Source of the DNA: Mustelus asterias
Taxonomy: Eukaryota
Direction: 5' to 3'
NCBI RefSeq assembly: GCF_964213995.1
Contig: NC_135801.1
Coordinates: forward strand, 116,374,001-116,438,000
DNA length: 64,000 nucleotides
Part shown: piece after piece, positions 24,815 to 60,962 of the stretch
Layout of the letters: each line of letters begins with the position of its first letter
How positions within the stretch are numbered: the stretch's first letter is position 1
Program-made: the position numbers and the translations under genes
Notes under the pieces: generated by a model
The model's input: the letters and a program-made list of their open reading frames with translations, nothing else
Told to the model about the DNA's origin: nothing
The model's database searches: none

Positions 24815-25890
24815 TTTTAAAATTAATTCACGAATGTGGGCATCGCTGTCCGGCCAGCATTTATTGGTCATTTCTAAACACTTTTTAAGGTGGCAGTCAG
24901 CTGCCCCTTGAAACACTGCCATCCATGTGATGGTGCTTGCATAGTATTGTTAGATTGGCAGTTCCAAGAATTTGACCCAGCAACAAGTGGCAATATGTTT
25001 CCAAAGCAGATGGTATGTGACTTGGAGGTGGAGTTTGAGATGGTGGTGTTTACAAGTGGCTACTGCCCTTGTCTTTCCAGATAGTGGAGGTTGTGGGTTA
25101 GGAACTGCTGTCAAAGAAGCCTTTTCAGGTTGCTGCAGTGCACCTTATAGATGGTATACACTGTTGTTAAAGTGTGCCAGTCGTGGAGAGATTTTAAGGG
25201 TGGGGTATCAATCAAAAGGGTTTCTTTGCCTGAAATGGTATTGAGCTTCTGGAGTGTTATTGGAAATGCACTGATTGAGGCAAGTAGTGTATAGTTGTTA
25301 GACTCCAGGTTTATGGCTTGCAGGTGGTGGAAAGGAGTTTAAAGTTTATTTATTAGTGTCACCAGTAGGCTTACATTAACAGTGCAATGAAGTTACTGTG
25401 AAAATCACCTAGTTGCCATACTCCGGCGCCTGTTCGGGTACACTGAGGGAAAATTTCATGGCCAATCTACCTAACCAACACGTCTTTCGGACTGTGGGAG
25501 GAAACCGGAGCACCCGGAGGAAACCCATGCAGACACGGGAGAATGTGTAGACTCCGCACAAACAGTGACCCAAGCCAGGAATCAAACCCAGGTCCCTGGC
25601 GCTGTGAGGCAGCAGTGCTAACCACTGTTTGGGCAAGGCTTTGGAGAGTTAAGATATTGGGTCAGTCACCACACAATATCCAGCCTCTGAACTGCTTTTG
25701 TAGTTACAGTATTCATGTGTATTTACGTGATCCAGTTAAGTTTCTGGTCAATGGTGATGCTCAGGATATTGGGGATGGCGGGAGGAATTTGATGATGGTA
25801 ATGACTGTCAAGGAGAGCTTGTTAGACTTTCTCTTGTTGGAACTGGTGATTGCCTGGCACTTGTGTCATGAATGTTATTTGCCACTTATC
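24815..25890 (-). mobile_element. Old CR1-like LINE 3' part, interrupted by a tail-B V-SINE (about 25338-25628)
   Basis: Reverse complement of the LINE seen at 56235-57770 (e.g. gaatgttatttgccacttatc; ggccagcatttattg tail). Confidence 0.7.
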
Positions 25891-25894
25891 AACA

Positions 25895-28800
25895 GAAAAG
25901 AAAAGTATTTGTTGATGTACAAGGAGGGAGCAAGGACAAAATGTGGGGAGAAAGTGCCAACTACATCAAAAATCAGGAAAAAAGTTAAAAGGAAGGAGAA
26001 CTCGGGAGATGTTATTAATGGCAGTGTTAGAATTCAAAAAGAAGGTACAAAAACTAGCATAAGGGCACTTTATCTGAATGCTCGTAGCATTGGAAACAAG
26101 GTAAATGAGTTGACAGCACAAATCACTGCGAACGAGTATGATTTGGTGACCATTACAGAGACATTGTTGCAGGATGGTCACGACTGGGAATTGAATATTC
26201 AGGGGTATCAGACTGTTCGGAGAGACCGACAGGAAGGTAAGGGAGGTGGTGTAGCTCTGATATTTAAGGATGACATCAGGGCGGTAGTGAGAAATGATAT
26301 AGGTTCTATGGAAAAAAAGGTTGCATCCATTTGGGTGGAAATTAGAAATAGTAAGGAGAAAAAGTCACTGACAGGCGTAGTCTATAGGCCACCAAATAAT
26401 GACATCATGGTGGGGCGAGAAATAAACAAAGAAATAACTGATGCATGTAAAAATGTTATAGCAATTATCATGGGGGATTTTAATCTACATATAATTGGCC
26501 AAACCAGGTCGGTCAAGGCAGCCTTGAGGAGGAGTTCATAGAATGTATCTGCAATAGCTTCCTTGAACAGTATGTAATGGAACCGACAAGGGAGCAAGCT
26601 ATCCTAGATCTGGTCCTGTGTAATGAGACAGGAATAATTAATGATCTTACAGTTAGGGATCCTCTTGGAAGAAATGATCACAGTATGGTTGAATTTAAAA
26701 TACAGGTGGAGCATGAGAAGGTAAAATCCAATACCAGTGTCTTGTGTTTAAACAAAGGAGACTACAAAGGGATGAGGGAGGAGTTGGCTAAGGTAGACAG
26801 GGAGCAAAACCTTTATGGTGGGACAATTGAGGAACAGTGGAGGACTTTCAAAGCGATCTTTCACAGCACTCAGCAAAAGTATATACCAGTGATAAGGAAG
26901 GACTGTAGAAAAAGAGATGATCAGCCATGGATATCGAAGGAAATAAAGGAAGGTATCAAATTGAAAGAAAATGCATACAAAGTGGCAAAGATTAGTGGGA
27001 ACCGAGAGGATTGGGAAATCTTTAAAGGTCAGCAGAAAGCCACGAAAAAAGCTATAAAGAAAAGTAAGATGGATTATGAGAGTAAACTAGCTCAGAATAT
27101 AAAAACAGATAGCAAAGGTTTTTACAAATGTATAAAACGAAAAAGAGTGGCTAAAGTAAACATTGGTCCTTTAGAGGATGAGAAGGGGGATGTAATAACT
27201 GGAAATGAGAAAATGACTGAGGCATTGAACAGGTATTTTGTGTCGGTCTTCACAGTGGAAGACACAAATAGCATGCCAAAAATTGATGACAGGAAGGCTA
27301 TGGCAGGTGAGGACCTAGAAACTATCATTATCACAAAAGTGGTAGTGTTGAGCAAGTTAATGGGGCTAAAGGCAGACAAGTCTCCTGGTTCTGATGGAAT
27401 GCATCCCAGAATACTAAAAGAGATGGCATTAGAAATAGCAAATGCACTCGTGGTAATTTACCAAAATTCGTTGGACTCTAGGGCGGTTCCCACAGATTGG
27501 AAAACAGCAAATGTGATGCCACTGTTTTAAAAAAAGGAGGTAGACAAAAGGCAGGTAACTATAGGCCAGTTAGTTTAACTTCTGTAATAGGGAAAATGCT
27601 TGAATCTATCATCAAGGAAGAAATAGCGAGACATCTGGAAATAAATTGTCCCATTGGTAAGACGCAGCATGGGTTCATGAAGGGATGGTCATGTTTGACT
27701 AATTTGGTGGAATTCTTTGAGAACATTACATGTGCAGTGGACAATGGGGAACCTGTGGATGTGGTGTATCTGGATTTCCAGAAGGCATTTGACAAGTTGC
27801 TGCACCAAAGACTGCTACATAAGATAAAGGTGCAAGGTGTTACAGATAATGTATTAGCATGGATAGAGGATTGGTTAACTAACAGAAAGCAAAGAGTGGG
27901 GGTAAATGGGTGTTTTTCTGGTTGGCGATCAGTGACTAGTGGTGTGCCTCAGGGATCAGTGTTGGGACCGCAATTGTTTACAATTTACATCGATGATTTG
28001 GAGTTGGGGACCAAGTGTAGTGTGTCAAAATTCGCAGATGACACTAAGATGGGTGGAAGAGCAAAGTGTGCAGAGGACGCTGAAAGTCTGCAAAGGGATA
28101 TAGATAGTCTAAGTGAGTGGGCGAGGGTCTGGCAGATGAAGTACAATGTTGGTAAACGTAAAATGGACTATTATTTAAATGGTAAAACATTGCAGCATGC
28201 TGCTATGCAGAGGGACCTGGGTATCCTTGTGCAGGAATCTCAAGGAGTTGATTTGCAGGTGCAGCAGATAATTAAGAAGGCAAATGGAATTTTGTCCTTC
28301 ATTGCTAGAGGGATGGAGTTTAAAAACAGCAAGATTATGTTGCAGCTGTATAAGGTGCTGGTGAGGCCACACCTGGAGTACTGTGTACAGTTTTGATCTC
28401 CTTACTTGAGAAAGGATATGCTGGCACTGGAGGGGGTGCAGAGGAGATTCACTAGGTTGATTCTGGAGTTGAGAGGGTTGGCTTGTGAGGAGAGACTGAG
28501 TAGACTGGGGCTATACTCATTGGAATTCAGAAGAATGAGGGGAAATCTTATAGAAACATATTATGAAAGGAATAGATAAGATAGAAGCAGGGAAGTTGTT
28601 TCCACTGGCGGGTGAAACTAGAACTAGGGGGCATAACCTCAAAATAAGGGGAAGCAGGTTTAGGACTGAGTTGAAGAGGAACGTTTTCACACACAAAGGG
28701 TTGTGAATCTGTGGAATTCCCTGCCCAGTGAAGCAGTTGAGGCTACCTCATTGAATGTTTTTAAGGCAAGGATAGATAAATTTTTGAACAGTAAAGAAAT

Positions 28801-39670: not shown

Positions 39671-39684
39671 GTTGAAGGTCAAGG

Positions 39685-41162
39685 ACGCAAATCTTTGTCT
39701 CGTCACTGGACACAGGTGAGGTCCCAGAGGATTGGAGGATAGCTAATGTGGTCCCGTTATTTAAGAAGGGTAGGAAAGATAACCTGGGAAATTATAGGAC
39801 GGTGAGCTTGACGTCCGTGGTAGGGAAGTTGTTGGAGAGGATTCTTAGAGATAGGATGTATGCGCATTTAGAAAGGAATAAACTCATTAACGATAGTCAG
39901 CATGGTTTTGTGAGAGGGAGGTCATGCCTCACTAACCTGGTGGAGTTTTTTGAAGAAGTGACTAGAATGGTTGACGAGGGGAGGGCCGTGGATGTCGTCT
40001 ATACGGACTTTAGTAAAGCATTTGACAAAGTCCCTCATGGTAGGTTGGTGCAAAAGGTTGGATCTCATGGGATTAAGGGGGAGGTGGCTAGATGGGTGGA
40101 GAACTGGCTTGGTCACAGAGACAGAGGGTGGTAGTAGAAGGGTCTTTTTCCGGCTGGAGGCCTGTGACTAGTGGTGTTCCGCAGGGCTCTGTATTGGGAC
40201 CTCTGCTGTTTGTGATTTATATAAACGATCTGGAAGAAGGTGTAACTGGGGTGATCAGTAAGTTTGCGGACGACACGAAAATGGCTGGACTTGCAGATAG
40301 TGAGGAACATTGTCAGAGGCTACAGAAGGATATAGATAGGCTGGAAATTTGGGCAAAGAAATGGCAGATGGAGTTCAATCCAGATAAATGCGAAGTGATA
40401 CATTTTGGTAGAACTAACGTAGGGGGGAGCTATACGATAAATGGCAGAACCATAAAGGGTGTAGATACGCAGAAGGACCTGGGTGTGCGAGTCCACAGAT
40501 CCTTGAAGGTGACATCACAGGTGGAGAAGGTAGTGAATAAGGCATATGGCATGCTTGCCTTTATAGGACGGGGCATAGAGTATAAAAGTTGGGGTCTGAT
40601 GTTGCAGTTGTATAGAACGTTGGTTCGGCTGCATTTGGAATACTGCGCCCTGTTTTGGTCACCACACTACCAGAAGGACATGGAGGCTTTAGAGAGAGTG
40701 CAGCGGAGGTTTACCAGGATGTTGCCTGGTACGGAAGGGCTTAGTTGTGAGGAGAGATTGGGTAAACTGGGGTTGTTCTCACTGGAAAGACGGAGGATGA
40801 GGGGTGACCTAATAGAGGTGTATAAAATTATGAAAGGCATAGATAGGGTGAACGGAGGGAAGCTTTTTCCCAGGTCGGTGGTGACGTTCACGAGGGGTCA
40901 TAGGTTCAAGGTGAAGGGGGGGAGGTTTAACACAGATATCAGAAGGACGTATTTTACACAGAGGGTGGTGGGGGCCTGGAATGCACTGCCAGGCAAGGTG
41001 GTGGAGGCGGACACACAGGGAACGCTTAAGACTTATCTAGATAGCCACATGAACGGAGTGGGAATGGAGGGATACAAAAGAATGTTCCAGTTTGGACCAG
41101 GGAGCGGCACGGGCTTGGAGGGCCAAAGGGCCTGTTCCTGTGCTGTATTGTTCTGTGTTCTT
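39685..41162 (+). mobile_element. Young 5'-truncated CR1 LINE (RT domain; one frameshift near 40115)
   Basis: NYRTVSLTS, DFSKAFDKVPH, GVPQGSVLGPLLF, KFADDTK, FTQRVVGAWNALP. Confidence 0.95.
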
Positions 41163-41559
41163 TTTTCTTGTAATAATCTCGCCAAAGCCAGTCTTCCATC
41201 AAGCAACACCCTTTATTTACAAATGGAAATGCGCCTCTTCCATGGCTTACAGCTCACCAATCCAAGCCCGACAACCGACATCATGAGAGTCCATGTTGAA
41301 GCTGCTTTTTCCACTGGGTGAACCCCCGCTCACTCAGTAGGGGCGTTCATACTCCACTAAGCCCAGGGGGAGATCTACTCATGCTCCCCATGTCCTTTGT
41401 GGCCAGCATAACAGAGGTTCCGATAGTCCTGCTCCAATTCTATTATTTCACCGTTCAAACGTGCCAGATTGTCCCGTCTTGCTGGGAGCTGATCCACCAT
41501 ACCCCTGCTGGGTAATACTGCCCCACCGGTAACTTTACCTCCACTATCAACCGCAATCA

Positions 41560-42535
41560 TTAAGGATAGGCGGCAACAACACCTCCTCCATGATCATTCG
41601 CAACACTGGTGCCCCACAAGGCTGTGTTCCCAGCCCCCTACTATACTCCTTATACAGCTATGATTATGTAGCCAAATTCCCCTCCAATTCGATTTTCAAG
41701 TTTGCTGACGACACCACTGTAGTGGGTCAGATCTCAAACAATGACGAGACAGAGTGCAGGAATGGGATAGAGAATCTGGTGAACTGGTGCAGCAACAATA
41801 ATCTCTTCCTCAGTGTCAGCAAAACGAAGGCGATAGTCATTGACTTCAGAAAGCGTAGGGGAGAACATGCCCCTGTCTACATCAACGGGGACAAAGTAGA
41901 AAGGGTCGAGAGCTTCAAGTTTTTAGGTGTCCAGATCACCAACAAATTGTCCTGGTCCCCCTATGCCGACACTATGGTTAAGAAAGCCCACCAATGCCTC
42001 TACTTTCTCAGAAGACTAAGGAAATTTGGCATGTCCGCCACGACTCTCACCAACTTTTACAGATGCACCATGGAAAGCATTCTTTCTGGCTATATGACAG
42101 CTTGGTATGGCTCCTGCCCTGCCCATGACCGCAAGAAATTACAAAGGGTCATGAATGAAGCCCAGTCCATCATACAAACCAGCCTCCTGTCCATTGACTC
42201 TGTCTATACTTCCCACTATCTCGGAAAAGCATCCAGCATAATTAAGAACTCCACGCACCTGGGACATTCTCTCTTCCACCTTCTATCAGGAAAAAGTCTG
42301 AGGTCAAGTACCAATCTATTTAAGAACAGCCTCTTCCCTGTTGCCATTAAACTTTTGAATGGACCTACCTCGCACTAAGTTGATCTTTCTCTCCACCCTA
42401 GCTATGACTGTAATACTATTCTGCACTCTCTCCTTTCCTTCTCTATGAACAGTATGGTTTGGCTGTATAACTCGCAAGAAACAATACTTTTCACTGTATA
42501 CTAATACATGTGACAATAATAAATCAAATCAAAGG
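41560..42535 (+). mobile_element. Rex1/Babar LINE 3' fragment with an open 262-aa RT C-terminus
   Basis: TGAPQGCVPSPLLYSLY, KFADDTTVVG, SKTKAIVIDFRK, LYFLRRLRKF; tail gtgacaataataaatcaaatcaaa. Confidence 0.9.
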
Positions 42536-42620
42536 ATGCCAGTGTCTCACTGATGGCGCTTCCCCTCGTCCCCTCGTCTCATTGGATGCCATTCCCTCTG
42601 GCCCCACTGTTTCACTGGGT

Positions 42621-43129
42621 GCTGTTCCCCCGGCTCCGCTGGGTGCCGCTGTCGGGCTCCGCGCTGTTCCCCCGGCTCCGCTGGGTGCCGCTGTCGGACT
42701 CCGCGCTGTTCCCCGTGGCTCCGCTGGGTGCCGCTGTCGGGCTCCGCGCTGTTCCCCGTGGCTCCGCTGGGTGCCGCTGTCGGGCTCCGCGCTGTTCCCC
42801 GTGGCTCCGCTAGGTGCCGCTGTCGGGCTCTGCGCTGTTCCCCGTGGCTCCGCTGGGTGCCGCTGTCGGGCTCCGCGCTGTTCCCCGTGGCTCCGCTGGG
42901 TGCCGCTGTCGGGCTCCGCGCTGTTCCCTGTGGCTCCGCTGGGTGCCGCTGTCGGGCTCCGCGCTGTTCCCTATGGCTCCGCTGGGTGCCGCTGTCCAGC
43001 TCCACGCTGTTACCCGTGGCTCCGCTGGGTGCCGCTGTCGGGCTCCGCGGTGTTCCCCGTGGCTCCGCTGGGTGCCGCTGTCGGGCTCCGCGCTGTTCCC
43101 CGTGGCTCCGCTGGGTGCCGCTGTCGGGC
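42621..43129. repeat. GC/CpG-rich minisatellite, 12 copies (2 x 42 bp, then 43 bp)
   Basis: Unit GCTGTTCCCCGTGGCTCCGCTGGGTGCCGCTGTCGGGCTCCGC; copies start at 42621, 42663, 42705, 42748 ... 43092; few substitutions, no spacers. Confidence 0.97.
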
Positions 43130-43460
43130 GGCTCGCTCCGGCCCGGAAGGGGTGCGCGCCGTTTTTAAACCGCTTGCCGCGGAGATTCGGGTTCCGGCCG
43201 GTGGCAGACGGAAGCGGAGCCACGGGGAAAGGAGCTGTTGCAGCCGGGGAATCCGCGGTAAGGGGATAGAGACCGGGAATGGGGTGAGGTCTGACTCGAA
43301 AAGCTCACTAACTGCCGGGTAAATGGGCGGGGAGGGGAAAGGCCCCTTACCCGGCCCGGGAGGGAGAACCTTTAATTAAAGGACTGGCTGCCTTTCCGCC
43401 GACAGTAATTGTGAGACGCATGCGTACATCCAGACAGGGGTCCATGTCACATGATCACTG
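43130..43460 (+). promoter_or_regulatory. CEP135: CpG-island promoter and putative non-coding exon 1 of CEP135 (donor GCG|gtaagg after 43257)
   Basis: Only CpG island in the window; ETS-type CGGAAG near 43144 and 43209, CTCF-like CCGGCCGGTGGCAG 43194-43207, NRF1-like palindrome ACGCATGCGT 43416-43425, E-box GTCACATGA; the ATG exon of CEP135 begins at an acceptor and so needs an upstream exon. Confidence 0.7.
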
Positions 43461-45171: not shown

Positions 45172-47262
45172 CTAGAAGTAGCATTGGCTGAGAGGATTAA
45201 GGTGAATCCAAAGGAATTCTTTAAGAACATTAAAGGAAAAAGAATAACTAGAGAGAGAATAGGACAAGGACCTCAAGGACCAAATAGGACACAAAAGTGT
45301 GGAATCACAGGAGATGGTCGAGGTTCTCAATGAATATTTCTCCTCTGTGTTTACCGTGGAGAAAGACATGAAGACTTGGGAACCTGGGAAATTAGTGATG
45401 ATATATTGGGGACAGTTCGCATTACAGTAGAGGAGGTGATGACGTATTAAAATGTATGAAAGTGGATAAATCTCCTGGCCCTGACCAGGCATATTGAAGA
45501 ACACTGCATGAGGCTAGAGAAGAAATTGCGGGAGCCCTGGCTGAGATATTTGCATCATTGTTAGCCATGGGGTGATGTACCAGAAGACTGGAGGATAGCA
45601 AATGCTGTGCCCTTATTTAGGAAGGGCTACAAAGAAAAACCTGGGAATTATAGACTGGTAAGCCTGACATCTGTGGTGGGTAAATTATTAGAGAGGATTC
45701 TGAGGGATAAGATGTACAAGCATTTGGAAAGACAGGGTTTGATTAGGAGTGGTCAGCACGGCTTTATGCATGGGAGATCATGCCTTACAAACTTATTAGA
45801 GTTCTTTGATGAAGTGACCAGGAAGGTTGATGAGGGTAGGGCGGTAGACATATTCTATATGGACTTCAGTAAGGCCTTTGATAAAGTTACACATGATAGG
45901 CTGCTCTGGAAGGTTAGACCACACAGAATCCAGGGAGAGCTGCCAAATTGGATATACAATTGGCTTGATGGTAAGAAGCAGAGGCTAATGGTGGAAGTAT
46001 GCTTGTCGGGCTGGAGGCCTGTGACTAGTGGTGTGCCTCAGGGGTCAGTGCTGGGCCCATTGCTGTTTGTTATCTATATCAACAATTTAAATGAGAATGT
46101 ACAAGGCATGAGTTTGCAGATGACACTAAAATAGGTGGTGGTGTAGACAGTGAGGAAGGTTACCAAAAATTGCAGCAGGATCTTAATCAGCTGGGGAAGT
46201 GGGCCGAGAATCAGCAAATGGAGTTCAATACAGATAAGTGTGAGGCGTTGCATTTTGGAAAGTCAAATCAAGGTAGGATTTTCACGGTGAATAGGAGGAC
46301 CTTAGGGAGTATCGTGGAATAGAGGGACCTTGGAGTTCAGGCGCACGGTTCTCTAAAGGTGGAGTCACAGGTAGATGGGGCAGTGAAGAAGGCTTTTGGC
46401 ATGTTGGTCTTCATCAGTCAGGGCATTGAGTATAGAAGTTGGGAAGTTATATTGTAGTTGTACAGGATGTTGGTGAGGCCGCACCTTGTGTACAGTTTTG
46501 GTCGCCTTGCTATAGGAAAGATTTGAGGTCACGTACCAACCGACTCAAGAACAGCTTCTTCCCTGCTGCTGTCAGACTTTTGAATGGACCTATCTTGCAT
46601 TAAATTGATTTTTCTCTACACCCTAACTATGACTGTAACACTACATTCTGCATTCTCTCATTTCCTTCTCTATGAAGGGTATGTTTTGACTGTATAGCAC
46701 GCAAGAAACAATACTTTTCACTGTATGTTAATACATGTGACAATAAATCAAAATCAAATCAAAAATCAAGATATTATTAAACTGGAGAGAGTGAAGAAGA
46801 GATTTACAAGGATGTTGCCGGACCCAAGGGACTGAGTTATAGGTAGAGATTGGACTTTTTTCTTTGGAGTGTAGGAGACTGAGGGGTGTAATTATAGAGG
46901 TGTATAAGATCATGAGAGGCATGGATAGAGTGAATGCACTCGGTCTTTTTCCCAGGGTTGGGAATTGAGAAGTAGAGGGCATAGGTCTAAGTTAAGAGGG
47001 GAAAAAATTAATGGGAACGTGAGGAGGAACGTTTTTTACACAGACGGTGGTACATATGTGAAATAAGCTGCCAGAGGATGTGGTTGAGGTAGGGACATTG
47101 TCAACATTTGTAAGAGAATTGGACAGATACATGGATAGGAAGGATTTCGAGGGATATGGGCCAAATGCAGGCAAATGGGGTTAGCTTAGATGGGCAATTT
47201 GGTCGACATGGACCAGTTTGAGCTGAAGGGCCTGTCTCTATGCCGTAGATTCTTTGATTCTC
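45172..47262 (+). mobile_element. CR1 LINE RT region, interrupted by a Rex1 tail (about 46524-46770)
   Basis: NYRLVSLTS, DFSKAFDKV, GVPQGSVLGP; YRKD|I..LERV split by the Rex1 3' end, with aagat at both junctions. Confidence 0.9.
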
Positions 47263-50166: not shown

Positions 50167-51275
50167 AATGTTCGGCTTTGGCCAATGTCACGTGGTGAAC
50201 AACATTAGAAACTCTCAGTTTTATATTATTAATGCAAGATTTTTAATATTTTTAATTATATGATGCTGAAGCAATGTGGATATAGAAGTAGTTTAAACCG
50301 TAATCATGAAGTGATAAAACTTAATGCATCAAACCTTCTTGTCATATCAATATCTGCAGAGTACAATTGATGTAGTGAACTCCCCGCAGTTTTACACTGC
50401 TGTCCTTAATAGCTAGTTCTTTGAATAACAAGGAACTATAATTAGAAGGTGCACCATTTAGGAAAGGTGTTTTACTGTGTAGCTCTTTAGCAAATGCATG
50501 CAAGATCTTTGTGTCAACTGTGATTAGAAGCAAGCTTGATATCACACACTGCGTTTGTTGTCTTGTAAACTGACTAAGTCACATAATACTCTTCTAACAC
50601 AGATGCAGGTATTAACTTAATCCCTGCTGCTAGTTTCATATCACATTCACAACTCCTGCTACTGTAGTAAACTACTGCTTAACATAGCATTTCAACAAAC
50701 GGGAACTGAATTGATTAAATTGTAAATTAAGGCCATTCAAAAGGGACTAAATGCCATTTTAGAGTATTTGCAGTGACAAAGAAACTGCTTTGTTCGCTGA
50801 CTTGTTGGAAAAAAATTATAGAATTGAGCTCCAGTTCATTACATGGGAACAGGAGAATGCGCTTTTTGACAAATATGTATGTTCAGCAATTACTGCGTAT
50901 GCAACTTGTTACTCCTGCCCATGGTTCGCTATTGGCAGTGGCCTATCAAAGTGCTCCATTGTGAAAATAATTGCCACCATCACCTCCTGAAAGCAACTTG
51001 CCTTCTGCATTCAAGAACACGTCTTTTGAAATTAGCTTCTGTAGGGAAAATGTGCAACTTCAATTCAAAAGCGGGAAGACAGTGCCTTTTATTGATTTAA
51101 ATATTTTTGCATGTGCTCTGGTGCTTTAATGAGACTGTGACACAAAATGTAAGCAATAGCTCTACCGCACAAAATGCATCTAGTTGTAAAATTATGGACA
51201 AATGCAATTGGGTTTAAGTGTTTTTATTCTTTGGTGTGTGGGTGTCACTGGAAAAGTAAGCTGCCATCCTTAACC

Positions 51276-51508
51276 AGTAAGAGTTTTAACAACAGGTTAA
51301 AGTCCAACAGGTAGCAAATGCCATTCGCTTTCGGAGCGCTGCTCCTTCATCAGATGAAGTGTTTTGGAGCAGATTTCCACTCCATCTGACGAAGGAGCAG
51401 CGCTCCGAAAGCTAATGGTATTTGCTACCAAATAAACCTGTTGGACTTTAACCTGGTGTTGTTAAAACTCTTACTGTGTTTACCCCAGTCCAATGCCGGC
51501 ATCTCCAA
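51276..51508. mobile_element. Palindromic non-autonomous Penelope-like insertion (family A) with 13-bp TSD
   Basis: Inverted arms 51276-51360 / 51378-51475; ATCCTTAACCAGT at 51266-51278 and 51509-51521. Confidence 0.85.
51382..51418 (+). ncRNA. Minimal type I hammerhead ribozyme motif (PLE-associated)
   Basis: CCAT-CTGACGA-A-GGAGC(AGC)GCTCC-GAAA-GC-TA-ATGG: stem I CCAT/ATGG, CUGANGA core, 5-bp stem II, GAAA, palindromic AGCT, UA cleavage site. Confidence 0.72.
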
Positions 51509-51950
51509 ATCCTTAACCAGTCCAGCCTAATTGTAACTCCAAATCCACAGCAATGTGGTTGAACCTTAGCTGCCCTGTGAAATGGCCTAAAAGCCACTCC
51601 ATTCAAGCCAATTGGGGGTGGGCAACAAATGCTGGTCTTGCCAGTGACACCAGTATCCCATGAAAGTAAAACTTAACTGATTAATGCTCAGTTTGGGTTC
51701 TTCCAGTGGCAGGAGGTAGTTTTGAGCGACCTATGTTTGTATTGTTGGATATTAGAAATGAGATATAGATTTAACTGAATTTAGCTTAGTATTTATGTGA
51801 AAGAAAGTTAAATCTCTACATTCTTATTAAACAAAGGTGTTTGGATGTATGGGGATTTTAAGTTAATTTCAAACTGTGTCTGCATTGTGACTTGAGAGTT
51901 TATGAAGTTAAAAGCAAACAGAGCTTAAAGGAAGACTGGGCAATTGCTTA

Positions 51951-52630
51951 ACACAGTAAGAGTTTTAACAACACCAGGTTAAAGTCCAACAGGTTTATTT
52001 GGTAGCAAATGCCATTAGCTTTCGGAGCGCTGCTCCTTCGTCAGATGGAGTGGAAATCTGCTCTCAAACAGGGCACACAGAGACACAAACTCAAGTTACA
52101 GAATACTGATTAGAATGTGAATCTTTACAGCTAATCAAGTCTTAAAGATACAGACAATGTGAGTGGAGAGAGCATTAGGCACAGGTTAAAGAAATGTGCA
52201 TTGTCTCCAGACAGGACAGCCAGTGAGATTCTGCAAGTCCAGACAAGCTGTGGGGGTTACCGATAGTGTGACATGAACCCAAGATCCCGGTTTAGGCCGT
52301 CCTCATATGTGCGGAACTTGGCTATCAGTTTCTGCTCAGCGACTCTGCGCTGTCGTGTATCGTGAAGGCCGCCTTGGAGAACGCTTACCCGAATATCAGA
52401 GGCCGAATGCCCGTGACCGCTGAAGTGCTCCCCCACAGGAAGAGAACAGTCTTGCCTGGTGATTGTCGAGCGGTGTTCATTCATCCGTTCTCGTAGCGTC
52501 TGCATGGTTTCCCCAATGTACAATGCCTTGGGACATCCTTTCCTGCAGCGTATCAGGTAGACAACGTTGGCCGAGTTGTAAGAGTAGGTACCGTGTACCT
52601 GGTAGATGGTGTTCTCACATGAGATGATGG
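51951..52630 (-). mobile_element. Young 5'-truncated Penelope-like element (family A) with open GIY-YIG C-terminus and 15-bp TSD
   Basis: Minus strand SANVVYLIRCRKGCPKALYIGETMQTLRERMNEHR...GLNRDLGF; GGCAATTGCTTAACA at 51939-51953 and 52629-52643; CpGs retained. Confidence 0.92.
52012..52048 (-). ncRNA. Minimal type I hammerhead ribozyme motif, identical to 51382-51418
   Basis: Reverse complement is CCATCTGACGAAGGAGCAGCGCTCCGAAAGCTAATGG; lies about 210 nt downstream of the GIY-YIG stop codon. Confidence 0.72.
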
Positions 52631-53599
52631 CAATTGCTTAACAACCAGGGGCTACCTTTAAGTTAGAAAGACCTGTTGCATTTAGTTTTTAACTGGACCC
52701 AAGGCAGTTGGAACTTAGCAATTATGAGGAAACAGCTCTCACCCCTCTATCAGAAGGAATGCAATGGAGTAATGGAAAGTCCCAGGAACTAAAGGACAGA
52801 TAGTTTAAGGAAGTGAAAAGTGAATCCCAGGAAACTGAAGTTAAAAGGACAAAGAACCTGGAAACTGAAGAAAGTTACTATTCATTGGAATTAAAGACAT
52901 AGCTGAAAAGTGCAGATCTGGCGAAGTTGGCTCGCGAGAAGCCAGATATCTGAAGCAATCCTAAGGTTGGTGAGGTAGTAAAGCAGTAGCATTCTATTGG
53001 CATGGCTGGATATTTGAGAGATTAGGTGGAAGCTTGAATGCACATGGAAAATCAAGGCAGAGGCATACTGAAAGGAGAGAGAGAAATCCTGAAAGTGGAT
53101 CCTTGCTAAAGTAGCTAAGGGAAAGTTTAGTTTGAAAGAAGATTCTAAGAAGTGACTTTTTGACAGTGAAGTTTGGGAAAGACTTATGTGGAAGCCAGAG
53201 TCCAGTGAGCCAAGTTGGCTCATGGTGTAATACTCATCTGGGGGGAATTGAGAAATCCACAAAAGTTATATTGGGTAGCATCTGCTGCTTGGTTTCAAAG
53301 TGGGGTGCCTGTTGTTTTACAGGGACTCTGTCTTTACTTAGAACACTGTAGTGTAAGATATATTTTGTAACCTATGTTATTTTAAAATCAGTGTACATTT
53401 ATGAAGATAAGTGTGAATGAAGGAGTATTGTACTATGTAAAACTTTTCATGTTTAATAAATTTATTTTTTCTTTTGCTAAAAGCTAATTGTCAGTCCTGC
53501 GACTCTGTTCATCCATGTTTCTAAAAAAAAGATAAAAGTTACAGACTGTTGAGCCAGGGTTCCATTCTGGGACCTTCTCTACGATTATAACAAAGGAGG

Positions 53600-59369: not shown

Positions 59370-59482
59370 ATGACCACCACTTCAGAGAGGAAGTTTATAA
59401 ACCTGCGAAAGCGTTTAGATCAACTTGGCTACAGGCAGCCCCTCGGGATCGAGACACTCCCATTGGTGGAAAAGCTTTTCAG
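59370..59482 (+). CDS. CEP135: CEP135 (centrosomal protein 135/Bld10) first coding exon; exon begins at 59334
   Basis: gtctag|GATTT...AAAATG; MTTTSERKFINLRKRLDQLGYRQPLGIETLPLVEKLFS; donor TTCAG|gtattt; phase 2. Confidence 0.95.
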
Positions 59483-60771: not shown

Positions 60772-60962
60772 TGATTTGGTGCACACAACAGAAAGCCTTC
60801 GCAATGCCAAACTATCATCTGGGAAAACGGAAAAAGAGAGCAAGAACTTGGACTCTGTACTTGAACCGTACAGAGCTGAGAATGCACATCTTGTCCAAGA
60901 GAACAACAAGCTCCACCAGGAATTACTGAAACTCAAGGAAGAGTCGGATGAACATATCAAAG
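60772..60962 (+). CDS. CEP135: CEP135 second coding exon, 191 nt
   Basis: gttgcag|TGATTTG...AAAG|gtatga; DLVHTTESLRNAKLSSGKTEKESKNLDSVLEPYRAENAHLVQENNKLHQELLKLKEESDEHIK. Confidence 0.95.

What the first reader, a model, noticed from the sequence alone, without database searches (positions are those of the whole stretch)
51276..52630. Intact minimal hammerhead ribozymes in young Penelope-like insertions in CEP135 intron 1
Seen: two identical 37-nt motifs CCAT-CUGACGA-A-GGAGC/GCUCC-GAAA-GC-UA-AUGG at 51382-51418 (+) and 52012-52048 (-). A third copy (51321-51357, -) has the cleavage site mutated (GCUA to GCGA). Both host insertions have clean TSDs (13 and 15 bp), and one carries an open GIY-YIG C-terminus. 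Established: PLE pseudo-LTRs carry minimal type I hammerheads with a palindromic stem III, thought to cleave as dimers. Unusual here: an extra A after CUGANGA and a stem III reduced to AGCU. Inference: the + strand copy would be transcribed within the CEP135 pre-mRNA, so it is a potentially self-cleaving motif in an intron of a centriole gene, possibly masked by its own inverted arm.
Basis: partly seen in the sequence, partly recalled or inferred. Interest (0 to 1): 0.7.

Follow-up and report, generated by a model that had tools for sequence, protein, structure and literature searches.

The report
Penelope hammerheads in shark CEP135 intron
These are two of about 132,000 copies of a known tiny hammerhead-RNA motif that a very abundant jumping gene has left in this genome; the copy read with CEP135 is predicted to be folded shut and is missing in a close relative, so it likely does nothing for the gene, although sister copies likely record real self-cutting.

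Summary
In detail: two identical 37-nt hammerhead motifs, one damaged copy, 13- and 15-bp target duplications and an open GIY-YIG end. They are the 3' ends of 5'-truncated copies of a Neptune/Nematis-type Penelope-like retrotransposon (natural copies have open frames of about 910 codons). The motif is real: stems I and II change in compensating pairs between subfamilies and G at the cut position is avoided (6 versus 233). It is not unusual: the extra base and the two-base palindromic helix III are described for Penelope hammerheads (PMC4209133). The genome holds 8,740 exact copies and 132,050 intact cores, so one in this intron is expected by chance (0.58). The sense copy is predicted to be fully paired with its own upstream inverted arm, has no sense partner nearby, and insertion 1 is absent from a ~97% identical relative. 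A CEP135 role is therefore unlikely. Of more interest is the family: copies begin at the predicted cut 3-7 times more often than at three neighbouring positions, and 36 of 45 target sites fit TG-16/17 nt-CA. The scan noted both before on other DNA of this genome; I re-tested them.

The parts
51266..51278 (.). Target-site duplication of insertion 1, left copy (13 bp)
   Evidence: D19; single copy in organism B contigs
51279..51361 (-). Insertion 1, inverted arm: short pLTR end without tail, with damaged hammerhead and two small deletions
   Evidence: (I2, I3, I5)
51321..51357 (-). Damaged hammerhead copy (U16.1 to G; predicted inactive)
   Evidence: requirement for U16.1 recalled
51360..51508 (+). 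Insertion 1, sense arm: pLTR end with intact hammerhead and the optional ~35-nt tail
51382..51418 (+). Minimal type I hammerhead motif; predicted cut between 51414 and 51415; same strand as CEP135; predicted to be paired with the inverted arm
51509..51521 (.). Target-site duplication of insertion 1, right copy
51939..51953 (.). Target-site duplication of insertion 2, left copy (15 bp, up to 4 bases shared with the element end)
   Evidence: (D16)
51954..52628 (-). Insertion 2: 5'-truncated Penelope-like copy (endonuclease end, 3' UTR/pLTR, no tail)
   Evidence: 90% identical to a natural full-length copy
52012..52048 (-). Minimal type I hammerhead motif, antisense to CEP135; predicted cut between 52016 and 52015
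52257..52628 (-). Open C-terminal 123 codons of the element ORF: GIY-YIG endonuclease
   Evidence: 88% identical to residues 792-914 of the L092 frame
52629..52643 (.). Target-site duplication of insertion 2, right copy
59370..59482 (+). CEP135 first coding exon (start codon to donor)
60773..60961 (+). CEP135 next coding exon (end approximate)
   Evidence: PDB 7bji 'Centrosomal protein of 135 kDa', E 6e-10

Best explanation
The two insertions are 5'-truncated copies of a very abundant Penelope-like retrotransposon, and the hammerhead is the element's own terminal-repeat motif, which likely cuts the element's RNA only as a dimer or with protein help and is likely inert in the CEP135 transcript. 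Shown: the motif sits about 200 nt after the stop codon of an RT plus GIY-YIG frame and about 100 nt before the start codon in tandem copies; its stems covary between subfamilies. Inferred: the endonuclease cuts a mirror-symmetric site (TG, 16-17 nt, CA) leaving a 11-15 bp duplication; reverse transcription starts at one of two sites downstream of the hammerhead, so even the shortest copies carry it; insertion 1 got two opposed arms, one with and one without the tail. In the host pre-mRNA the antisense arm is made first and would pair with the hammerhead as it emerges.
For: Element identity. Copy number: 8,740 exact, 132,050 cores, control 3. Covariation in 111 copies: stem I pair 1 U-A 55, C-G 51, mismatched 3; stem II pair 2 G-C 70, A-U 23, G-U 13; pair 3 A-U 82, G-U 16, G-C 12; N7 and position 17 vary freely, GC of helix III kept in 108. 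G at position 17: 6 versus 233 for A/C/U in one subfamily pattern. Masking: probability of stems I and II below 0.00001 at five nascent-chain lengths with the arm, 0.06-0.89 without it. No other sense core in the window or the next 10 kb; the next is about 25 kb downstream. Empty site in two samples of a ~97% identical organism. Single minimal motifs did not cleave and dimers cleaved weakly (PMC4209133); an anole element's motif needed its protein (PMC11167929).
Against: No cleavage was measured. Covariation rests on a few subfamily changes, each inherited by many copies, and part of the sample was picked by patterns that demand the core or a double change. Stem I pair 4 is unpaired in 28 of 111 copies. 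Folding is an equilibrium model without proteins. Clade rests on a motif, no tree was built. Exon 1 and transcription through the site are inferred.
Confidence: 0.86

Rival explanations
1. The sense copy has been, or is being, co-opted to cut or regulate the CEP135 pre-mRNA, like the conserved intronic hammerheads of amniotes.
For: Intact core on the CEP135 strand upstream of the start-codon exon; domesticated intronic hammerheads exist (PMC6155905, passages).
Against: Insertion 1 absent in a close relative; 0.58 copies expected by chance; predicted fully masked by its arm and also by insertion 2, 98% complementary over 121 nt; no helix III and no nearby sense partner.
Confidence: 0.03
2. The motif is kept by the element for a non-catalytic job, for example pairing two element RNAs through the AGCU palindrome or binding the element protein; cleavage is negligible.
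For: Low in vitro activity of this class; core mutants did not affect insertion in vitro and no reads ended at the cut in anole RNA (PMC11167929); Naiad elements thrive without the motif (PMC8557442); most copies extend past the cut site, so uncut RNA is the usual template (versus 38).
Against: Avoidance of G17 and the excess of copies starting at the cut fit catalysis. The two arms of fold-back insertions are usually of one subfamily (34 of 36; 29 of 31; random pairing 0.49, 0.40), which gives no sign of two different templates.
Confidence: 0.1
3. The hammerhead likeness is chance in a repeated sequence.
For: No Rfam hammerhead hit; only 37 nt.
Against: Compensatory changes in both stems, free variation only at N7, 17 and loops; position in the pLTR as published for this class.
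Confidence: 0.01

Closest known systems
Minimal hammerheads (min-HHR) in pLTRs of metazoan Penelope-like elements (Cervera and de la Pena 2014, PMC4209133; parts 1-2 of 4 read, figures and supplements not seen)
   Same: Type I core, 4-bp stem I, unpaired base between positions 9 and 10.1, G10.1-C11.1 pair, helix III reduced to a 2-nt palindromic insert (as in D. virilis), pLTR location, mostly single dispersed copies, opposite-strand pairs 100-700 bp apart.
   Different: Stem II is 5-6 bp rather than 7-8; copy number 132,050 cores against about 9,000 in Xenopus (different search rules); sharks are not named in the parts read.
Neptune/Nematis-type EN+ Penelope-like elements (PMC8557442 and PMC3846280, passages)
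   Same: One ORF with RT and C-terminal GIY-YIG, DKG motif, CX2-5CxxC linker, partial tandems, inverted truncated copy, 30-40 bp tail on one end, target duplications.
   Different: Target preference here is a spaced inverted pair (TG, 16-17 nt, CA), not the microsatellite bias mentioned for Neptune; no tree was built to separate Neptune from Nematis.
Poseidon element PAc of Anolis carolinensis (PMC11167929; parts 1-2 of 4 read)
   Same: Hammerhead in the pLTR; two reverse-transcription starts that define the tail; both DNA strands cut.
   Different: PAc is Penelope/Poseidon clade and its ORF starts inside the hammerhead; here the likely start codon is about 100 nt downstream, at the end of the tail, and a cysteine linker is present.
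Domesticated intronic hammerheads of amniotes (RECK and others; PMC6155905, passages)
   Same: Type I hammerhead in an intron, sense to the gene.
   Different: Those are conserved across lineages and carry tertiary contacts; this one is a recent, lineage-restricted transposon end within a fold-back.

Membership tests
Minimal type I hammerhead of Penelope-like elements | Core CUGANGA / GAAA / UH in order, closed by stem I | tested here: met
Minimal type I hammerhead of Penelope-like elements | Stem II closed by G10.1-C11.1 with one unpaired base before it | tested here: met
   (pair 1 standard in 111 of 111; extra A in 110 of 111)
Minimal type I hammerhead of Penelope-like elements | Helix III absent or a short palindrome | tested here: met
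   AGCU; GC kept in 108 of 111
Minimal type I hammerhead of Penelope-like elements | Compensatory changes across genomic families | tested here: met
   few independent events
Minimal type I hammerhead of Penelope-like elements | Located in the pLTR of a Penelope-like element | tested here: met
   (both upstream of the ORF in tandem copy L094 and after the stop)
Minimal type I hammerhead of Penelope-like elements | Self-cleavage as dimer or with protein | not testable with these tools
   only indirect:
Rfam hammerhead families | Covariance-model score at or near threshold | tested here: not met
   no hammerhead family among 3 hits at E up to 10
EN+ Penelope-like elements | Single ORF with RT and C-terminal GIY-YIG | tested here: met
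EN+ Penelope-like elements | Partial tandems, inverted pLTR, optional tail, target duplication | tested here: met
Neptune/Nematis clades | CX2-5CxxC linker between RT and endonuclease | tested here: met
   residues 776-784 of the L092 frame; definition from PMC8557442
Neptune clade | Placement in an RT tree with reference elements | not tested
   no named reference sequences were fetched
Domesticated intronic hammerheads | Conserved at the orthologous site across species | tested here: not met
   insertion 1 absent in organism B, two samples

The most novel reading that the evidence does not exclude
This family keeps a genomic record of a Penelope hammerhead cutting in the living germ line: a share of copies was made from RNA already cut by the ribozyme and starts exactly at the cut, including perfect hairpins whose two arms both end there; and a paired endonuclease reads a mirror-symmetric TG-16/17-CA site and primes from both ends. 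With over 100,000 intact cores, sense copies in introns would also form a natural experiment on whether such motifs ever cut host RNA.
Probability: 0.45. Interest if true: 0.6.

Novelty: new member of a known kind. Interest (0 to 1): 0.27.

Why it matters
For CEP135 it likely does not matter. For retroelement biology, the role of Penelope hammerheads in vivo is open (PMC8557442 calls it unclear; PMC11167929 found no cut ends in anole RNA). This young, very abundant family, with open full-length frames, offers a large sample in which the cut position and the target rule can be read from the genome and then tested.

Tried and rejected
Rfam scan at E up to 10: no hammerhead hit. No RNA holder listed for the stretch, so transcription, splicing and RNA ends were not examined. 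In one search the two CEP135 stretches had wrong coordinates and their weak hits were discarded; redone. The alignment held a mistyped reference and was not used. Dimer energy (-19.1 kcal/mol against -19.2 for two monomers) does not discriminate. Idea that the two arms of fold-back insertions come from two different RNAs: not supported, arms usually agree, although the arms of insertion 1 differ at one such site. Empty site of insertion 2 in organism B: a 296-nt contig stops at 51938 with 83 letters left over, suggestive but the join was not displayed. Polymorphism within organism A could not be read (repeat contigs swamp the tables). Lunse et al. 2017 is not held; only its title was seen. No earlier notes near this locus.

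Full report
Observation. All listed features are present. The motifs at 51382-51418 (+) and 52012-52048 (-) are identical; the copy at 51321-51357 (-) has three changes including U16.1 to G. Target duplications of 13 and 15 bp flank insertions 51279-51508 and 51954-52628. The frame in insertion 2 is open for 123 codons and scores as GIY-YIG. CEP135 lies on + with coding exons at 59370-59482 and from 60773; the insertions are upstream of these. Exon 1 is inferred from the GC-rich stretch near 43150-43257. The host is likely a shark (3.68 Gb genome; 'shark metagenome' labels among small-share runs; earlier notes); this is inference.

The element. A 99-aa piece of a longer copy drew 27,192 first-look candidates, 150 scored. 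Five fetched copies have open frames of 887-915 codons with an RT hit, DKG, YIDD, a CX4CxxC linker and the GIY-YIG end; insertion 2 is 88% identical to the last 123 residues. The linker marks Neptune or Nematis elements (PMC8557442, passages; PMC3846280, passages). In L094 a truncated copy precedes the full frame, so the hammerhead lies about 100 nt before the likely start codon, and again about 200 nt after the stop. Right ends fall in two groups about 38 nt apart (60 and 65 of 149 anchors; overlapping loci not merged), the published 'tail' pattern. Insertion 1 is a fold-back with the tail on the sense arm only; 44 of 47 opposed arm pairs had the tail on exactly one arm (a few pairs are not from one insertion).

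Is the hammerhead real? Of 53 pLTR ends in 34 loci found through the protein, 37 have an intact core and both stems. In 111 copies from all loci, stem I pair 1 is U-A in 55 and C-G in 51, mismatched in 3; stem II pair 2 is G-C 70, A-U 23, G-U 13, other 5; pair 3 is A-U 82, G-U 16, G-C 12; N7 is C, U or A; position 17 is A 59, U 43, C 7, G 2; stem I pair 4 is unpaired in 28. A genome-wide pattern demanding changes on both sides of stem II pair 2 gave 233 matches, mostly the A-U subfamily in the 100 listed, and 6 with G at position 17. These counts are of copies, reflect a few subfamily events, and part of the sample was chosen by core patterns. Still, variation falls where a hammerhead tolerates it (rule recalled). 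Rfam does not detect it.

Is it unusual? No. PMC4209133 (parts 1-2 of 4) lists a base between positions 9 and 10.1, the G10.1-C11.1 pair and a palindromic 15.2-16.2 region as recurring features, describes a 2-nt palindromic helix III in D. virilis, and reports no cleavage of single motifs and low cleavage of dimers. PMC11167929 (parts 1-2 of 4) found protein-assisted cleavage for an anole element, no need for it in insertion, and no RNA-seq reads ending at the cut. A review (PMC6765202, section 11 part 2) states the dimer model. Six paper searches listed no paper devoted to shark Penelope hammerheads; a 2026 preprint sampled one cartilaginous fish for tandem retrozymes (passages). Supplementary alignments of PMC4209133 were not seen and may hold shark motifs.

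Does it matter for CEP135? Likely not. The exact 37-mer occurs 8,740 times and the intact core 132,050 times, control 3: one per 28 kb, 0.58 expected between 43260 and 59430. In organism B, a 1103-nt contig (X3, 27 differences in 966) runs from 50300 to 51265 and its remaining 53 letters lie on 51509-51561; a 401-nt contig of another study (X10) does the same (contigs matched by length, depth and strand). So insertion 1 is absent there, with one copy of the target. For insertion 2 the same is suggested but not shown. Folding puts the probability of both stems below 0.00001 at five chain lengths once the upstream arm is included, against 0.06-0.89 without it; insertion 2 would also pair with it. 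No second sense core lies in the window or the next 10 kb.

Leads from earlier notes, tested here. Target rule: of 90 loci with a mapped insertion (L061-L097 left out), 39 gave no duplication call; of 45 distinct sites with one, 36 have TG, 16 or 17 nt, CA around the duplication, both window insertions included; 500 shuffles gave mean 2.8, maximum 8. Cut footprint: copies of the young subfamilies whose likeness stops at a given base (three mismatching bases before it) number 292 at the cut, 128 three bases before, 88 six before, 181 three after; corrected for the chance of passing the filter 1304, 327, 196, 462. Against: only three control positions, slightly different right ends of the patterns, an assumed flank composition, and 35 of the 100 listed cut-site matches are arms of perfect hairpins, many counted twice; without them the excess is about 2-4 fold. 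It fits copying of cut RNA but does not prove it.

Verdict. A real minimal hammerhead of a known kind in two recent transposon scraps; ordinary at this locus. The interest lies in the family, which the scan has already flagged on other DNA of this genome.

Noticed in passing
window 51266-51521 and 51939-52643; loci L001-L060, L098-L127: Target sites fit a mirror-symmetric TG, 16-17 nt, CA pattern centred on the duplication (36 of 45 sites; shuffles mean 2.8).
   Followed up: yes
L112/L113, L114/L115, L118/L119, L123/L124 and similar rows: Perfect hairpin insertions whose two arms both start at the predicted cut and overlap by two bases; 35 of 100 listed matches are of this junction type.
   Followed up: partly
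window 51279-51361: The inverted arm has two small deletions and several substitutions against the sense arm, more than usual for arm pairs; cause unexplained.
   Followed up: partly
window 51360-51480 and 51950-52070: 121-nt arms, 98% complementary, 469 nt apart: a long double-stranded stretch in the pre-mRNA, a possible A-to-I editing substrate (inference).
   Followed up: no
L091 4740, L094; rows: Another large subfamily has N7 = A, a 6-bp stem II and only a 3-bp stem I; several full-length open frames carry it.
   Followed up: partly
window about 51520-51670: Repeat remnant between the two insertions with high contig depth; resembles a shark SINE 3' end (label recalled, not tested).
   Followed up: no
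window 42471-43375: GC-rich tandem array just upstream of the likely CEP135 exon 1 (frames); several CR1/L2-like RT remnants elsewhere in the window (25447-28396, 39676-42378, 45565-46134; labels recalled).
   Followed up: no
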